A stretch of DNA of 31,921 bases. It comes from an uncultured Desulfovibrionaceae bacterium. Lineage in GTDB: Bacteria > Desulfobacterota > Desulfovibrionia > Desulfovibrionales > Desulfovibrionaceae. Position 1 is the stretch's first letter, and the number at the start of each line of letters is the position of its first letter. The notes beneath the pieces are model-generated. The model ran no database searches and was not told where the DNA came from. It saw only the letters and a list, made by a program, of their open reading frames with translations. Of the stretch, positions 3,822-24,742 are shown one piece after another. Both the position numbers and the translations under genes were made by a program. The stretch lies in assembly GCA_949427775.1 (NCBI GenBank), contig CASQEL010000001.1, forward strand, positions 1 through 31,921, written 5' to 3'.

Positions 3822-4246
3822 GTAAAGATTCCTCTGCGATCCGCGAACTTTCCCCGGAGGAGCGGGGAAGGCCGGAAGCGCGGTGAAGCCGGTAGGGGGG
3901 CGAACCGACGTTCCGCGAAGGAAACACTGTCCGCCCGAACCTCCTGCCGAGGCCTGCGAGGCGGCGTCAGGGGAAACCGGCTGTATGACTTGTCATTAAG
4001 GGCCGGAAACACGTATTGCGGGGTTGGTAGCCTGAAAACGGCGGCGAGGCAAGGGGCGGAAGAGGTGCTTTCGGGACGATTCCCGCGGAGATCCCGTCAC
4101 TGGGCGGGCGCTGCAATGAAGGCTTGCCGCCGTGCGTCCGGAGGCGACGGGGATATAAGGAAAAAGAGGAAAATGACACATGGGGCTGGACGCAACCGGA
4201 CAAATGCGGTATGAACGGACATGCGCCATCTCAGTTTCCGCACGTC

Positions 4247-4299
4247 TTGTGAAATTTTGCATGAGAGGCTTGACGAAAAGGTATCCTGCTTGTTATTTT
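4247..4299 (+). promoter_or_regulatory. Putative aprBA sigma70 promoter with adjacent Rex-like operator
   Basis: TTGACG (4270-4275), 18 nt, then TGn-TATTTT (4294-4299). TTGTGAAATTTTGCATGA (4247-4264) matches the Rex consensus TTGTGAA-N4-TTCACAA at 7/7 and 4/7. Confidence 0.55.
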
Positions 4300-4443
4300 C
4301 CGCGCAAGCGCGGGGGTACGCGCGGCGCCGGGGGCGGAGGCGATAAAAGGCGGGGGTACTGCCTGCCTTTTTAGGCTCCGCCGGCGGGTGTTTCTGCCGG
4401 ATGTATAAAGCCCGTTCAACACTTTAAGAGTTGGAGGATACGT

Positions 4444-4932
4444 ATGCCGACGTTTGTCGATCCGTCCAAATGCGACGGCTGCAAGGGTGGCGAAAAGACT
4501 GCCTGCATGTACATTTGCCCCAACGACCTCATGATCCTCGACCCTGAGGAAATGAAGGCCTACAACCAGGAACCTGATGCATGCTGGGAATGCTACTCCT
4601 GCGTGAAAATCTGCCCGCAGGGCGCTATCACGGCCCGTCCGTACGCCGACTTCGCGCCCATGGGCGGTACCTGCATCCCCATGCGTTCGGCCGACTCCAT
4701 CATGTGGACGGTCAAATTCCGCAACGGCAGCGTGAAACGCTTCAAATTCCCCATCCGCACCACGGCTGAAGGTTCCATCAAGCCCTATGACGGCCGTCCC
4801 GAAGGCGCCAACCTGGACGACGAACTTCTGTTCACCGAAGAAAAGCTGGCCACTCCTCAGGAAGTGCTGAACAAGAAGTTCGAAGTTACTGATGCCGGCA
4901 AGACCGTTACGGAAATGGAACAGGGCCGCTAG
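4444..4932 (+). CDS. aprB: Adenylylsulfate (APS) reductase beta subunit
   Basis: MPTFVDPSKCDGCKGGEKTACMYICP and CWECYSCVKICP, two [4Fe-4S] motifs; GGAGG RBS. Confidence 0.99.
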   Translation: MPTFVDPSKCDGCKGGEKTACMYICPNDLMILDPEEMKAYNQEPDACWECYSCVKICPQGAITARPYADFAPMGGTCIPMRSADSIMWTVKFRNGSVKRFKFPIRTTAEGSIKPYDGRPEGANLDDELLFTEEKLATPQEVLNKKFEVTDAGKTVTEMEQGR

Positions 4933-4975
4933 GCTCATTGCATGACAGCTCAAGTGCGAGCAAGGAGATAAGACT

Positions 4976-6964
4976 ATGCCGATGATTCCTTCCAAGGAAG
5001 TGAACAAGGGTGTCGCCATCGCCGAACCGGTGGTGAAAGAGCACGACGTTGACCTGCTGATCGTTGGCGGCGGGATGGGTGCTTGCGGCACCGCCTATGA
5101 AGCGGTGCGCTGGGGCGAAAAACACAATCTGAAAATCATGCTGTGCGACAAGGCCGCCCTTGAACGTTCCGGCGCCGTGGCGCAGGGTCTGTCCGCCATC
5201 AATACCTATCTCGGCAAAAACAACGCCGACGACTATGTGCGCATGGTCCGTACCGACCTGATGGGTCTGGTTCGCGAAGACCTGATCTTCGACGTGGGCC
5301 GGCATGTGGACGACTCCGTGCATCTGTTCGAAGATTGGGGCCTGCCCTGCTGGATCAAGGACGAAAACGGCCACAATCTGAACGGCGCCGCCGCCAAGGC
5401 CGCCGGCAAATCCCTGCGCAAGGGCGACGAGCCTGTGCGTTCCGGCCGCTGGCAGATCATGATCAACGGCGAATCCTACAAATGCATCGTGGCTGAAGCG
5501 GCCAAGAACGCCCTGGGCGAAGACCGCATCATGGAGCGCATCTTCATCGTGAAGCTGCTGCTTGACGCCAATACCCCCAACCGCATCGCCGGCGCCGTGG
5601 GCTTCAACCTGCGCGCCAACGAAGTGCACATCTTCAAAGCCAACGCCATCATGGTGGCCGCCGGCGGCGCGGTGAACGTGTACCGCCCCCGTTCCACCGG
5701 TGAAGGCATGGGCCGCGCCTGGTATCCCGTGTGGAACGCCGGTTCGACCTACACGATGTGCGCTCAGGTCGGCGCCGAAATGACCATGATGGAAAACCGT
5801 TTCGTGCCCGCCCGCTTCAAGGACGGTTACGGTCCGGTCGGCGCGTGGTTCCTGCTGTTCAAGGCCAAAGCCACCAACTCCAAGGGTGAAGATTACTGCG
5901 CCACCAACGCCGCCATGCTCAAACCCTATGAAGAGCGCGGCTACGCCAAGGGCAAAGTCATTCCCACCTGCCTGCGCAACCACATGATGCTTCGCGAAAT
6001 GCGCGAAGGTCGCGGTCCCATCTACATGGACACCAAGACCGCTCTGCAGAACACCTTCGCCACGTTGAACGAAGAACAGCAGAAAGACCTTGAGTCCGAA
6101 GCCTGGGAAGACTTCCTCGACATGTGCGTCGGTCAGGCCAACCTGTGGGCGGCCTCCAACATCCAGCCCGAAGAACGCGGCTCGGAAATCATGCCCACCG
6201 AACCTTACCTGCTCGGTTCCCACTCCGGCTGCTGCGGCATCTGGGTGTCCGGTCCCGACGAAGCGTGGGTGCCTGACGACTACAAAATCAAGGCTTCCAA
6301 CGGCAAGGTGTACAACCGCATGACCACGGTTGAAGGCCTGTTCACCTGCGCCGACGGCGTGGGCGCTTCCGGCCACAAGTTCTCCTCCGGTTCCCATGCT
6401 GAAGGCCGCATCGCCGGCAAGCAGATGGTGCGCTGGTGCGTGGACCACAAGGACTTCAAACCTTCCTTCAAGGAAAGCGCCGACGAGCTGGCCAAGCTGA
6501 TCTATCGTCCGTACTACAACTTCCTGGAAGGCAAGGCCGCTTCCACCGACCCGGTGGTCAACCCCAACTACATCACGCCGAAAAACTTCATGATGCGTCT
6601 TGTGAAGTGCACCGACGAATACGGCGGCGGCGTGTCCAACTACTACACCACCTCCAAGGCCCTGCTGGACACCGGCTTCCATCTGCTGGGCATGATGGAA
6701 GAAGACTCCTACAAGCTGGCCGCCCGCGACCTGCACGAACTGCTGCGCTGCTGGGAAAACTACCATCGCCTGTGGACCGTGCGCCTGCACATGCAGCACA
6801 TCGCCTTCCGCGAAGAATCCCGCTACCCCGGCTTCTACTACAGGGCCGACTTCCTGGGCATCGACGATTCCAAGTGGAAGTGCTTCGTGAACTCGAAGTA
6901 TGATCCCGCCACCGGCGAGACCAAGATCTTCAAGAAGCCTTACTATCAGATCATCCCCGACTAG
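4976..6964 (+). CDS. aprA: Adenylylsulfate (APS) reductase alpha subunit (FAD)
   Basis: GGGMGACG FAD motif, ERSGAVAQGLSAINTY, EPYLLGSHSGCCG, HKFSSGSHAEGR, REESRYPGFYYRADF. Confidence 0.99.
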   Translation: MPMIPSKEVNKGVAIAEPVVKEHDVDLLIVGGGMGACGTAYEAVRWGEKHNLKIMLCDKAALERSGAVAQGLSAINTYLGKNNADDYVRMVRTDLMGLVREDLIFDVGRHVDDSVHLFEDWGLPCWIKDENGHNLNGAAAKAAGKSLRKGDEPVRSGRWQIMINGESYKCIVAEAAKNALGEDRIMERIFIVKLLLDANTPNRIAGAVGFNLRANEVHIFKANAIMVAAGGAVNVYRPRSTGEGMGRAWYPVWNAGSTYTMCAQVGAEMTMMENRFVPARFKDGYGPVGAWFLLFKAKATNSKGEDYCATNAAMLKPYEERGYAKGKVIPTCLRNHMMLREMREGRGPIYMDTKTALQNTFATLNEEQQKDLESEAWEDFLDMCVGQANLWAASNIQPEERGSEIMPTEPYLLGSHSGCCGIWVSGPDEAWVPDDYKIKASNGKVYNRMTTVEGLFTCADGVGASGHKFSSGSHAEGRIAGKQMVRWCVDHKDFKPSFKESADELAKLIYRPYYNFLEGKAASTDPVVNPNYITPKNFMMRLVKCTDEYGGGVSNYYTTSKALLDTGFHLLGMMEEDSYKLAARDLHELLRCWENYHRLWTVRLHMQHIAFREESRYPGFYYRADFLGIDDSKWKCFVNSKYDPATGETKIFKKPYYQIIPD

Positions 6965-23037: not shown

Positions 23038-23864
23038 TGTTTGTCGCAACGGAGCAGTTTTCGGAACAGGTGCGCGCCGCCGTCAATCCGGCCGGTCGAA
23101 TTTCGGAAGTCGCGTTGCGGGATCTGGCCGCCGCGGCTGATCTGACGCTTCTGGAAGCGCAGCAGCACGCCTGCGCCGCGGGCGTGCTGCCGGAGCGCTA
23201 TGCCCGGAACATGCGGCAGTTGACCGTGGAGCAGCAGGGGCGTCTCCTGGGGGGACGTGTGCTGGTGGTGGGTCTGGGCGGCCTGGGCGGCCATGTCGTG
23301 GATATGCTGGCGCGTATGGGCGTGGGCAGGATCAGCGGAGCGGACGGCGATGTTTTTGAAGAGTCCAACGCCAACCGGCAGATGCTGGCGGATACGGCCA
23401 CGTTAGGCCATCCCAAAACCGAGGCCGCCGCCCGTCATATCCTGCGGGTGAATCCCGCCGTGCAGTTTACGCCGCTGCATACGTTCCTGAGGGGAGCGGC
23501 GCTGGACGCCGCGGCCCGCGAGGTTGACGTGGTGGTGGACGCCCTGGGCGGCCTGCGCGATCGGGGCGCTGTGGAGGCCGCGGCCGCGCGGGCGGGTGTG
23601 CCTCTGGTCAGCGCCGGCATCGCCGGATTGACCGGGTGGTGCATGGTCGTGCGGCCGGGCGAACGCGGTCCGGCCATGCTGCTGGGCGATCCGGACGGCC
23701 CGGGCGGCGCGGAAGAACTGTTGGGCAATCTCGCGCCCACAGTGGCCATGGCCGCCGCTCTCCAGAGCGCGGCGGTCATGAAGCTTCTGACAGGGTTGCC
23801 TGTGCGGGAGGGAATGATCATCTTCGATCTGGAAGATGCGACCATGGACCGTATCACGTTATAA
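23037..23864 (+). CDS. HesA/MoeB/ThiF-family (E1-like) adenylyltransferase
   Basis: RYARN, VVGLGGLGG, DGDVFEESNANRQ, PKTEAA, VVVDALG; lacks the Zn-binding CxxC pairs. Start at ATG 23037 overlaps the SBP TGA. Confidence 0.88.
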   Translation: MFVATEQFSEQVRAAVNPAGRISEVALRDLAAAADLTLLEAQQHACAAGVLPERYARNMRQLTVEQQGRLLGGRVLVVGLGGLGGHVVDMLARMGVGRISGADGDVFEESNANRQMLADTATLGHPKTEAAARHILRVNPAVQFTPLHTFLRGAALDAAAREVDVVVDALGGLRDRGAVEAAAARAGVPLVSAGIAGLTGWCMVVRPGERGPAMLLGDPDGPGGAEELLGNLAPTVAMAAALQSAAVMKLLTGLPVREGMIIFDLEDATMDRITL

Positions 23865-23904
23865 TCTATAACAGAATTTGTTACCGGCAATTCCGGAGGC
23901 ATAT

Positions 23905-24084
23905 ATGGAATGGCAATCAGTCGTGTTGCTCATCGTGGCGGTGCTTGTCACGGCGCTGGTCGGGCGCGTGTTCGGGAAGCCGGGAGGTCTGGGAGGCGGT
24001 TGAGGTCTGCGTCCTCCCGTCCGGCGGACGGAAGACGCCGCGCATGCAAAGGATTCGGAGCATAAAGACGGAGGCGGCGCATGA
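23905..24084 (+). CDS. Unannotated small membrane protein: 32 aa to UGA 24001, or 59 aa if that UGA is read as selenocysteine (GGG-U-G)
   Basis: GGAGG at 23895-23899, TATAAT at 23860-23865, TM helix SVVLLIVAVLVTALV, SECIS-like hairpin after the UGA, terminator-like hairpin plus T-run after 24084. The ORF is well supported; Sec decoding is inference. Confidence 0.6.
24009..24038 (+). promoter_or_regulatory. Bacterial SECIS-like stem-loop
   Basis: Lower stem GCGTC/GACGC, upper stem CCGTCC/GGACGG, apical loop GGC starting 20 nt after the UGA. Confidence 0.45.
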
Positions 24085-24115
24085 GCGTCCCTTTCGGATC
24101 GCCTTTTTGTGTTTA

Positions 24116-24292
24116 GGGTCAGCCCCCGGTAAAACGCCGTCCGCGAAAAACCGAAATTTTTCGGCCTGCAAGGCGCAAGGCAAACATTGGCCGAAGCCGC
24201 CGTGAACCTGCCGCAAGGTCAATGACGGCCGTGCAAGGCCGCGGGACGGAAAAAGGCGGCTTTGCGGCAGGCGGATTCATGAGGGCTGACCC
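24116..24292. other. Candidate structured RNA in the long intergenic region upstream of coo
   Basis: Closing stem GGGTCAGCCC/GGGCTGACCC plus several internal 7-12 bp stems. Confidence 0.3.
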
Positions 24293-24742
24293 CGGGACGG
24301 CGGTGGAGTTTGCGGTACGAAAATTGCGGCGCGGGCATGGGATGCATTCTCTGTGCCGATCATGGAAAATAGTGACGGGGACGGGGGACGCGCCGCCCCT
24401 GACCCGGGTGACGGCATTGCCGGCATATTTTTTTGTTTTCTTTGCCGTGAAAATCGCCTATGTTAGTGAGAAATTTATTCAGGGTGGTTTGCCGTACCGC
24501 AGCGAAACGCTCCGGGAAAGAACGGACCGGGCATGTTCGGGAATACGGACGCGAGGATGCGCCGTTTCTTTCAAGATTTCGACAAGGCGATAATAGCGTG
24601 GCTGCTGCGTGAACGAACTCTTGCCGACCTGATAACGTATGACGGCGGAACATTCCGGTTGTCGGCGGGCGGCAGTGGATGCTTTTTCCGGCAGCGCGCA
24701 TTATGCGCAGACAAACAGTGTTTGAATGTGCAAGCAGGTATA

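What the first reader, a model, noticed from the sequence alone, without database searches (positions are those of the whole stretch)
23905..24084. Candidate membrane-anchored micro-selenoprotein (TM helix - GGG-U-G) missed by ORF calling
Seen: TATAAT, then GGAGG-5nt-ATG, then MEWQSVVLLIVAVLVTALVGRVFGKPGGLGGG-[TGA 24001]-GLRPPVRRTEDAAHAKDSEHKDGGGA-stop. Directly 3' of the UGA is a two-tier hairpin (GCGTC/GACGC; CCGTCC-GGC-GGACGG) whose loop begins with G 20 nt downstream, the geometry of bacterial SECIS elements. A terminator-like hairpin plus T-run occurs only after the second stop. Established: many Desulfovibrionaceae decode UGA as Sec via SelAB/tRNA-Sec, and eukaryotic SELENOK/SELENOS are single-TM, Gly-rich proteins with a GGUG motif (analogy only, no homology claimed). 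Inference: a possibly undescribed bacterial selenopeptide for membrane redox or Se/metal handling, lying between a cysK/ABC/ThiF cluster and the Coo hydrogenase.
Basis: partly seen in the sequence, partly recalled or inferred. Interest (0 to 1): 0.82.

Follow-up and report, generated by a model that had tools for sequence, protein, structure and literature searches.

The report
Probable small membrane selenoprotein gene
A 32-codon membrane-peptide gene in a mouse-gut sulfate-reducer relative very likely reads through its UGA "stop" as selenocysteine to make a 59-residue membrane-anchored selenoprotein of an undescribed family, though this rests on sequence comparison only.

Summary
The window has an SD, an ATG and 32 codons (one TM helix, GGLGGG), then TGA at 24001, a hairpin, 26 more open codons and a second TGA.

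One genome alone proves little. 57% of TGA-ended ORFs here stay open for 26 or more codons, and about 2% of all TGAs are followed by a loosely SECIS-like hairpin.

Comparison makes the case. I found seven distinct alleles in three lineages, all in the same gene order (ThiF, this ORF, CooM).
- All keep the TGA and exactly 26 further codons.
- The three codons after the TGA change only synonymously (Gly 2, Leu 4 and Arg 3 codon types).
- The hairpin CCGUCC-GGC-GGACGG is invariant.
- Its GGC loop starts at nt 23 from the U of UGA, the same loop and distance as in this genome's HesB/ErpA-like selenoprotein gene.
- selA, selB, tRNA-Sec and a Sec-containing selD are present.

Weaknesses: tail codons 13-26 evolve almost neutrally, there is no covariation, no clear Cys homologue and no expression data. 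Similarity to FeoB-associated Cys-rich membrane proteins (PF12669), with U on their first Cys, is below threshold.

Selenoprotein reading: about 0.6.

The parts
23895..23899 (+). Shine-Dalgarno GGAGG, 5 nt before the ATG
   Evidence: Read directly. CCGGAGGCATAT is conserved in all lineages.
23905..24000 (+). ORF1, codons 1-32: short N-terminus, one TM helix, basic residues, Gly-rich GGLGGG
   Evidence: Translation. It has the best dicodon score of the six frames, 0.64 per codon. Seven alleles show excess synonymous change, column-shuffle P = 0.003. It is called as a 32-aa gene in public assemblies.
24001..24003 (+). In-frame TGA, candidate Sec33
   Evidence: TGA in all seven alleles. In a family HMM alignment it falls on the invariant first Cys of PF12669 members, but that score is weak.
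24004..24081 (+). 26-codon tail read only if the UGA is recoded (GLRPPVRRTEDA plus a variable hydrophilic end)
   Evidence: No indel in any allele. Codons 1-3 vary only synonymously. Allele pairs within a lineage: L127/L144 5 of 5 differences synonymous (P = 0.002); L096/L141 2 of 2 changed codons synonymous (P = 0.02); window/L140 0 of 3. Dicodon score is 0.24, the best of the six frames.
24017..24031 (+). SECIS-like hairpin CCGUCC-GGC-GGACGG (6-bp stem, loop at nt 23-25 from the U of UGA)
   Evidence: Folds at -8.2 kcal/mol. Invariant in all alleles apart from one loop change, GGC to GUC in L144. Same loop and distance as the SECIS of the genome's HesB/ErpA-like selenoprotein gene. The 15-mer occurs only once in the genome.
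24009..24038 (+).
   Evidence: Folds at -16 kcal/mol, z = -2.2 in the window. The lower stem is lost in L096, which folds at -10.6, z = -0.5.
24082..24084 (+). Stop codon of the read-through frame, overlapping the ATG of ORF2 (ATGA)
   Evidence: TGA in four of the first six alleles (lineages A-C) and TAA at the same place in all three D-lineage alleles.
24081..24116 (+). Remnant of ORF2. Relatives have an intact 31-aa TM protein (MIVLFF.LWI.ILYFGWRWSL..ENRGAG.G). Here it is cut to 11 codons.
   Evidence: Alignment and translations. The window carries a 13-nt deletion and then the repeat below. GGAGG at 24070-74 serves as its SD.
24113..24293 (.). MITE-like repeat of about 180 nt with inverted ends GGGTCAGCCC / GGGCTGACCC, inserted where ORF2 continues in relatives
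   Evidence: 96 blastn rows in the draft genome at 78-93% identity. Many metagenome contigs pile up on 24108-24200. Assemblies of this species break here.

Best explanation
The locus encodes a 59-residue single-pass membrane selenoprotein.

Translation (inferred): it starts at ATG 23905 behind a strong SD. After 32 codons the ribosome meets UGA 24001. SelB carrying Sec-tRNA(Sec) is held by the hairpin 24017-24031, whose GGC loop lies at nt 23-25. SelB inserts selenocysteine, and translation runs 26 more codons to UGA 24082. Some ribosomes probably terminate at the first UGA and release the 32-aa peptide.

Protein (inferred): by the positive-inside rule the N-terminus faces out. The Gly-rich linker, Sec33 and the basic/acidic tail face the cytoplasm, so one selenol sits on a flexible arm at the inner face of the membrane.

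Origin and role (inferred, low confidence): the layout copies the FeoB-associated Cys-rich small membrane proteins (PF12669), with a single Sec where they have the first Cys of a CGCGC cluster. My best guess at function is therefore a (probably dimeric) selenol site for metal or redox handling at the membrane.

What is shown: the Sec machinery, the conserved UGA, hairpin and frame, and the synonymous-substitution bias. What is inferred: Sec insertion itself, the topology and the function.
For: 1. Machinery and positive controls in the same genome.
- selB 332 bits, selA 608 bits, tRNA-Sec 81 bits.
- selD carries one in-frame TGA.
- A HesB/ErpA-related gene has the motif LGGGUH (NF033940, 91.8 bits).
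- A [NiFeSe] hydrogenase has the motif DPUMSCATH.

2. The hairpin fits the published bSECIS model (PMC13188914, read): loop of 3-9 nt, stem of 4-16 bp, G in the first two loop positions, 16-37 nt spacing, MFE at or below -7.5 kcal/mol. It folds at -8.2 to -19.7 kcal/mol. Its GGC loop at nt 23 equals that of the HesB-like SECIS, and selD has GGU at nt 24.

3. Seven alleles from three lineages share the synteny. All have 32 codons, TGA, 26 codons and a stop, with no indel. The flanking spacers do have indels.

4. Coding signature after the UGA.
- Codons 1-3 use GGT/GGC, CTG/CTA/TTG/CTT and CGT/AGG/CGG with no amino-acid change. The two invariant bases in that stretch are the two second codon positions.
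- Allele pairs within a lineage: 5 of 5 and 2 of 2 changed codons are synonymous (P = 0.002 and 0.02). A third D-lineage allele adds 2 synonymous changes and 1 non-synonymous.
- The + frame 0 is the best of the six frames, and only it fits both of those pairs.

5. A family HMM built from 29 PF12669 members ranks five of the six candidates 2nd-7th among 42,019 six-frame ORFs. The alignment for L096 is ungapped and places U on the invariant first Cys.
Against: - Tail codons 13-26 show no codon periodicity (7/8/8 variable columns by position). They diverge to 52-64% identity, close to the 49% of non-coding DNA.
- The whole-tail column-shuffle test gives only P = 0.15, or 0.04 when the absence of stops is also required.
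- The window/L140 pair has three changed codons, all non-synonymous.
- The stem never varies, so there is no covariation.
- An open frame of at least 26 codons after a TGA is common, 57%.
- No convincing Cys homologue exists. The Pfam hit is 14.4 bits against a cut-off of 27. Without a C placed at U, the HMM scores fall to 5-13.5 bits.
- Part of the tail's conservation (GGAGGCGGCG) can be explained as the SD of ORF2.
- Only three closely related lineages are known, and there are no RNA, Ribo-seq or proteomic data.
Confidence: 0.6

Rival explanations
1. ORF1 is an ordinary 32-aa small membrane protein that ends at UGA 24001. The conserved hairpin is an intercistronic RNA element between ORF1 and ORF2, for example for mRNA stability or processing, or to control ORF2 translation. 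The coding-like pattern behind the UGA is then coincidence plus RNA and SD constraints.
For: - Gene callers annotate 32 aa.
- The second half of the tail evolves at a near-neutral rate without periodicity.
- GGAGG at 24070-74 is the SD of ORF2, whose ATG overlaps the second stop.
- The five variable bases right after the UGA all lie in the loop of a possible small GAGG/CCUC stem.
- TGA is the commonest stop codon here, 842 of 1638 ORFs.
- An open frame after a TGA is common.
Against: - Six substitution events in codons 1-3 without any amino-acid change. My estimate is P of about 0.005, even if variation is confined to that loop.
- In the allele pairs within the C and D lineages, all changed tail codons are synonymous.
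- There is no indel in 78 nt, although the neighbouring spacers have several.
- The hairpin has the same loop and distance as a proven type of SECIS in the same genome.
- In the window species ORF2 is dead, yet the hairpin and frame are intact.
Confidence: 0.3
2. The 32-aa peptide ending in Gly-Gly-Gly is a substrate or partner of the adjacent ThiF/E1-like enzyme, a membrane-anchored stand-in for ThiS/MoaD. In this reading the UGA is a true stop.
For: - ORF1 starts 40 nt after the ThiF stop and ends GGLGGG.
- In more distant relatives the ThiF orthologue is followed by a 74-aa ThiS/MoaD-family gene, then FdhD, an NTP_transf_3 (MobA-like) gene and a Radical_SAM/Mob_synth_C (MoaA-like) gene. One such gene product ends VGGG.
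Against: - There is no PF02597 match.
- 32 residues with a TM helix cannot form a beta-grasp fold.
- A ThiS-family gene exists elsewhere in the genome.
- This reading does not explain the conserved hairpin or the coding signature after the UGA.
Confidence: 0.05
3. Nothing here is a gene. ORF1 and its extension are chance open frames in GC-rich intergenic DNA, or the constraint comes from an antisense gene.
For: Long antisense ORFs are called over this region in two relatives, 251 aa and 188 aa. GC-rich DNA has many spurious ORFs.
Against: - ORF1 shows a strong excess of synonymous change (P = 0.003), a conserved SD and ATG, and the best coding score of the six frames.
- The antisense open frames differ in extent in every lineage, from 34 to 344 aa, and fail the within-lineage pair test.
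Confidence: 0.03

Closest known systems
Bacterial SelB/SECIS-decoded selenoprotein genes, in particular this genome's HesB/ErpA-related selenoprotein (G000 C77, motif LGGGUH)
   Same: Both have an in-frame UGA followed by a short G+C-rich hairpin whose GGC triloop starts at nt 23 from the U. Both have a Gly-Gly-Gly-Sec motif. They sit in the same genome, with selA, selB, selC and selD.
   Different: There is no sequence homology. The stem is 6 bp rather than 8. The product is a 59-aa membrane peptide, not a soluble Fe-S assembly protein. It matches no curated model in NCBIfam or Pfam. A search of a 2026 review of 119 prokaryotic selenoprotein families for 'transmembrane', 'FeoB' and 'membrane protein' found nothing (PMC13188914).
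FeoB-associated Cys-rich membrane protein family (Pfam PF12669)
   Same: - The size is similar, 50-90 aa.
- The TM helix starts at residues 3-6.
- Arg/Lys residues follow the helix, then a Gly-rich linker.
- The first Cys lies at residue 30-33, often as GGGCG, against GGG-U-G at residue 33 here.
- The tail is variable and hydrophilic.
- The family is common in Desulfovibrionaceae, 118 of 151 genomes, and this genome has a canonical copy.
   Different: The score is below the Pfam cut-off, 14.4 against 27 bits. The candidate has no Cys cluster, only one Sec and no other Cys. It is not next to feoB, whereas the canonical copy at C307 lies upstream of feoB. The function of the family itself is untested.
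Eukaryotic SELENOK / SELENOS
   Same: From my own knowledge: these are single-pass membrane proteins with a Gly-rich, disordered cytosolic part and Sec in a G-U-G-like context.
   Different: No homology is claimed or found. In SELENOK and SELENOS the Sec is at the extreme C-terminus and is decoded through a 3'-UTR SECIS. Here 26 residues follow the Sec, and the element lies inside the coding region.
ThiS/MoaD sulfur carriers next to ThiF/MoeB
   Same: The position right after a ThiF-family gene is the same. The C-terminus would be Gly-Gly if the UGA terminates.
   Different: No beta-grasp domain is possible. A TM helix is present. There is no PF02597 match.

Membership tests
Bacterial selenoprotein gene (SelB/SECIS recoding) | Genome encodes SelA, SelB, SelD and tRNA-Sec | tested here: met
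   TIGR00474 608 bits, TIGR00475 332 bits, RF01852 81 bits and TIGR00476 321 bits, all over their cut-offs.
Bacterial selenoprotein gene (SelB/SECIS recoding) | In-frame UGA kept in orthologues, never TAA or TAG | tested here: met
   TGA in seven alleles from three lineages. The weight is limited, because TGA is also the commonest stop codon.
Bacterial selenoprotein gene (SelB/SECIS recoding) | [quoted passage not shown] | tested here: met
   6-bp stem, GGC loop at nt 23, -8.2 kcal/mol for the 15-mer. About 2% of all TGAs meet a loose version of the model.
Bacterial selenoprotein gene (SelB/SECIS recoding) | Protein-level conservation downstream of the UGA in the same frame | tested here: met
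   GLRPPVRRT(E/G)D is conserved with synonymous codon changes. Within-lineage pair tests give P = 0.002 and 0.02. The last 14 codons are barely constrained.
Bacterial selenoprotein gene (SelB/SECIS recoding) | Homologues with Cys aligned to the Sec position | tested here: inconclusive
   The only link is a sub-threshold alignment to PF12669 that puts U on the invariant first Cys. phmmer over 1.84 billion representative proteins found no Cys form.
Bacterial selenoprotein gene (SelB/SECIS recoding) | Compensatory changes in the SECIS stem | tested here: inconclusive
   All 6 stem pairs are invariant, which speaks neither for nor against the structure.
Bacterial selenoprotein gene (SelB/SECIS recoding) | Selenium demonstrably incorporated | not testable with these tools
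   This needs 75Se labelling or mass spectrometry. No RNA runs hold the locus.
PF12669 FeoB-associated Cys-rich membrane protein | Score at or above the Pfam gathering threshold | tested here: not met
   P0007 scores 14.4 bits (E = 0.047) against a cut-off of 27. The window's own protein is not reported at E <= 0.01.
PF12669 FeoB-associated Cys-rich membrane protein | N-terminal TM helix, basic stretch, Gly linker, first Cys near residue 30-33 | tested here: met
   Seen in the 30 extracted family sequences and in the HMM alignment, if U is counted as Cys.
PF12669 FeoB-associated Cys-rich membrane protein | Cluster of several Cys (CxCxC..C) | tested here: not met
   A6 has four invariant Cys columns. 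The candidate has one U and no Cys.
PF12669 FeoB-associated Cys-rich membrane protein | Gene next to feoB | tested here: not met
   The candidate's neighbours are ThiF and a CooM-like gene. The canonical copy in this genome lies upstream of FeoB_N.
ThiS/MoaD sulfur carrier | PF02597 beta-grasp domain with C-terminal Gly-Gly | tested here: not met
   No Pfam hit. The genome-wide PF02597 search finds C442, not this locus. Only the Gly-Gly end would fit.

The most novel reading that the evidence does not exclude
The UGA and hairpin act as a selenium-dependent gate that yields two products: a 32-aa Gly-Gly-ended peptide when Se is scarce and the 59-aa selenoprotein when Se is available. In the relatives that keep ORF2, read-through ribosomes would also drive translation of the overlapping second membrane peptide (ATGA / TAATG overlap). 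The locus would then be a translational selenium sensor upstream of the Coo-type hydrogenase genes.
Probability: 0.1. Interest if true: 0.75.

Novelty: new member of a known kind. Interest (0 to 1): 0.58.

Why it matters
If this is real, it adds a new bacterial selenoprotein family of an unusual kind: a 59-residue single-pass membrane protein. A 2026 review covering 119 prokaryotic selenoprotein families contains neither 'transmembrane' nor 'membrane protein' (PMC13188914).

It would also show a blind spot in the usual way of finding selenoproteins. That method looks for Sec/Cys pairs with longer, well-conserved proteins, and micro-proteins cut off at the UGA escape it.

It would give a handle on the untested FeoB-associated Cys-rich peptides, because one Sec would stand in for their Cys cluster.

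The known range is narrow: three lineages of gut Desulfovibrionaceae. That limits the reach of the finding.

Tried and rejected
**Searches that found no further relatives**
- DNA search of 60 relatives gave only chance matches. The 21-nt hit in the same-genus genome lies inside a 569-aa membrane-protein ORF that looks like a lactate permease by eye; I did not test it.
- tblastn of the peptides against the fetched loci and the own genome gave noise.
- A profile of the read-through protein against 400 Desulfovibrionaceae genomes gave only weak hits. Several of them later proved to be PF12669 genes.
- The word-index protein search cannot see 32-aa proteins.
- Scans of genome contigs and metagenome contigs by peptide and by degenerate DNA patterns that allowed TGA, TGC or TGT found nothing, apart from one chance hit in a Patescibacteria MAG.
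- Rfam at gathering thresholds found nothing in the window.
- The ESM Atlas gave no named look-alike.
- The genome behind L096 is not held, so its Sec machinery could not be checked.

**Expression**
- There are no RNA runs holding the locus. The RNA runs offered carry only the coded organism label of one DNA holder and are polyA or single-cell libraries, and none holds the locus.

**Checks that ruled something out**
- Two other PF12669-like matches with an inner TGA (G163, G140) are ordinary stops.
- My crude dicodon scan for in-frame TGAs was swamped by antisense frames. A hairpin-first scan worked better.
- No small TM ORF follows ThiF in relatives whose ThiF is 58% identical or less.
- Rejected readings: a promoter at TATAAT, a terminator after the second stop, an antisense gene, and a ThiS-like carrier.

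Full report
**1. What is there**

GGAGG lies at 23895-99, followed by 5 nt and ATG at 23905. The 32 codons read MEWQSVVLLIVAVLVTALVGRVFGKPGGLGGG, then TGA at 24001. 26 open codons follow, then TGA at 24082.

The neighbours are a PLP enzyme on the minus strand, an ABC permease, a family-3 solute-binding protein and a ThiF-family gene that ends at 23864. Downstream lie a 1269-aa double Proton_antipo_M protein, an NADHdh subunit and a [NiFe] hydrogenase large subunit, which together make a Coo/Ech-type hydrogenase. The DNA comes from a mouse-gut metagenome organism. The genome is a 477-contig draft, 89.5% complete.

**2. A single genome proves little**

- TGA is the commonest stop codon, 842 of 1638 crude ORFs.
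- 57% of TGA-ended ORFs stay open for at least 26 codons.
- A loosely SECIS-like hairpin follows 2.1% of all TGAs and 17 of 830 gene stops. I defined this as a perfect stem of at least 6 bp and a 3-6-nt loop with G in its first two positions, starting at nt 20-27. A strict version follows 51 of 62,833 TGAs and 1 of 830 gene stops.
- A 66-nt piece around the hairpin folds no better than shuffles (z = +0.45). The 30-nt two-tier hairpin does fold better (-16 kcal/mol, z = -2.2).
- The promoter and terminator scan supports neither the TATAAT nor the 'terminator'.

**3. The Sec system is present and in use**

selB, selA and tRNA-Sec are all found over their cut-offs. Three genuine selenoprotein genes serve as positive controls:
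- selD has one in-frame TGA.
- A HesB/ErpA-related gene on C77 has the motif LGGGUH (NF033940, 91.8 bits).
- A [NiFeSe] hydrogenase large subunit on C168 has the motif DPUMSCATH.

Their hairpins are as follows:

| Gene | Stem | Loop | Loop start (nt from the U of UGA) |
|---|---|---|---|
| selD | 8 bp | GGU | 24 |
| HesB-like | 8 bp | GGC | 23 |
| [NiFeSe] hydrogenase | 6 bp | UGGAU | 26 |
| Candidate | 6 bp | GGC | 23 |

So the candidate has the same loop sequence and the same distance as the HesB-like gene. It also fits the published bacterial SECIS model (PMC13188914). From my own knowledge, the loop bases that SelB needs in E. coli fdhF are G23 and U24.

**4. Homologues**

phmmer of the read-through protein against 1.84 billion representative proteins found one 32-aa relative at 78% identity. 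Its 75-kb contig has the same gene order.

Relatives of the ThiF protein led to more contigs. In all there are seven distinct alleles in three lineages:
- window and L140
- L096 and L141
- L127, L144 and L181-183

ThiF identity between lineages is 77-94%. All alleles sit between ThiF and the CooM-like gene.

Every allele has 32 codons, TGA, exactly 26 codons and a stop (TGA or TAA) at the same place. By contrast, the 40-nt spacer before ORF1 and the DNA after ORF2 carry several indels. The DNA after ORF2 falls to 49% identity between deep lineages.

**5. Is the stretch after the UGA translated?**

Evidence for translation:
- Codons 1-3 after the UGA read GGT/GGC, CTG/CTA/TTG/CTT and CGT/AGG/CGG. 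That is six changes, including two at first codon positions, and the residues are always Gly-Leu-Arg. The only invariant bases in that 7-nt stretch are the two second codon positions. I estimate a chance of about 0.005.
- Codons 4-11 are invariant even at wobble sites, because they hold the hairpin. The exceptions are a synonymous CGG to CGT, which changes the loop GGC to GUC in L144, and a GAA to GGA change, which lengthens the stem in the L127 lineage.
- In the within-lineage pair L127/L144, 5 differences are all synonymous (simulation P = 0.002).
- In the pair L096/L141, 3 base changes fall in 2 codons, both synonymous (P = 0.02).
- A third allele in the L127 lineage adds 2 synonymous changes and 1 non-synonymous.
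- Among the six frames, + frame 0 has the most synonymous and fewest amino-acid types and no stop. It is the only frame that fits both informative pairs.
- The dicodon score of the tail is 0.24 per codon, the best of the six frames. True genes score 0.47 ± 0.46 and shifted frames about -0.9.

Evidence against translation:
- In the pair window/L140, three codons changed and all three changes are non-synonymous (P = 0.76).
- Codons 13-26 show no periodicity and diverge almost as fast as non-coding DNA.
- The whole-tail column-shuffle test is weak, P = 0.15, or 0.04 with the no-stop condition.
- The last codons double as the SD (GGAGG 24070-74) of a second ORF.
- The stem never varies, so covariation says nothing.

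Antisense ORFs called in two relatives differ in extent in every lineage and fail the pair test.

**6. A second small gene and a repeat**

In five of the six alleles first compared (all but the window's), and in the later L182/L183 allele, the second stop overlaps the ATG (ATGA or TAATG) of a conserved 31-aa TM peptide. An example is MIVLFFLLWIVILYFGWRWSLRDENRGAGMG.

In the window species this ORF2 is cut to 11 codons by two events. One is a 13-nt deletion. The other is a MITE-like repeat of about 180 nt at 24113-24293, with inverted ends and 96 blastn rows in the draft genome. The hairpin and the 26-codon frame have stayed intact although ORF2 is dead.

**7. What family?**

Pfam and NCBIfam have no model that reaches its cut-off.

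One allele gives a weak Pfam hit to PF12669, the FeoB-associated Cys-rich membrane protein (E = 0.047, 14.4 bits, cut-off 27). That family is common in Desulfovibrionaceae, 118 of 151 genomes. The genome's own canonical copy lies upstream of feoB.

Family members share the candidate's layout:
- a TM helix starting at residues 3-6
- Arg/Lys residues after the helix
- a Gly linker
- the first Cys at residue 30-33, often as GGGCG
- a variable hydrophilic tail

An HMM built from 29 members ranks five of the six candidates 2nd-7th among 42,019 six-frame ORFs of this genome. The best scores 18.6 bits (E = 0.003), and the window's own copy only 9.4 bits. The L096 alignment is ungapped and puts U on the invariant first Cys.

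About 5 bits of that score come from writing C for U. Without it the scores are 5-13.5 bits. hhalign gives 94.6% probability, but only over the TM helix.

I treat this as a lead, with about even odds. If it is true, a single Sec has replaced a Cys cluster. The fast-evolving tail would then be normal for the family.

**8. Verdict**

The selenoprotein reading is the best-supported explanation, at about 0.6. The main rival, at about 0.3, is a 32-aa membrane peptide followed by a conserved intercistronic hairpin.

The idea of a Gly-Gly peptide as a ThiF substrate is unlikely. In more distant relatives this ThiF sits with a real ThiS/MoaD gene in what looks like a molybdenum-cofactor cluster (FdhD, a MobA-like and a MoaA-like gene). 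That reading does not explain the hairpin or the frame.

The function remains inferred: a selenol on a flexible arm at the cytoplasmic face of the membrane, probably acting in pairs, for metal or redox handling.

The mechanism is well known. The family and its micro-membrane format appear new, and are known so far only from three gut lineages.

Noticed in passing
window 24113-24293: A MITE-like repeat of about 180 nt with inverted ends GGGTCAGCCC / GGGCTGACCC. It gives 96 blastn rows at 78-93% identity in the 2.48-Mb draft genome. Many gut-metagenome contigs pile up on it, and assemblies of this species break here.
   Followed up: partly
window 24081-24116; intact in L096:3177-3272 and L127:4052-4147: A second small gene, a 31-aa TM peptide (MI.(L/V)FF.LWI.ILYFGWRW.L..ENRGAG.G), is conserved in the two other lineages and in L140. 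Its ATG overlaps the stop of the read-through frame. It is a pseudogene in the window species. There is no Pfam family above threshold.
   Followed up: partly
G000 C77 4887-5231 (-), C12 210-1142 (-), C168 about 3840-5263 (+): Three genuine selenoprotein genes in the same genome: a HesB/ErpA-related gene (LGGGUH), selD, and a [NiFeSe] hydrogenase large subunit (DPUMSCATH). The hydrogenase runs off the end of its contig.
   Followed up: yes
L133:2501-5687 and L136:2501-5729: In relatives whose ThiF is 61-63% identical, the ThiF gene is followed by a 74-aa ThiS/MoaD-family gene, FdhD, an NTP_transf_3 (MobA-like) gene and a radical-SAM (MoaA-like) gene, which looks like a molybdenum-cofactor cluster. 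In the window's clade ThiF has moved next to an amino-acid ABC transporter.
   Followed up: partly
G000 C307:1622-1738 (-) = L168:1417-1623: A canonical FeoB-associated Cys-rich membrane protein (69 aa, ...KGGGCGCGCGGC...) lies about 550 nt upstream of feoB on the same strand.
   Followed up: partly
window 23860-23865: The TATAAT read as a -10 box is made by the ThiF stop codon (TAA 23862-64) and its context. It is not kept in the other lineages.
   Followed up: yes
window 24002-24016: A possible 4-bp stem GAGG/CCUC would enclose the UGA's GA and the first four codons. It is invariant in all alleles, and all variable bases lie in its 7-nt loop. It could matter for recoding efficiency or be an accident.
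   Followed up: no
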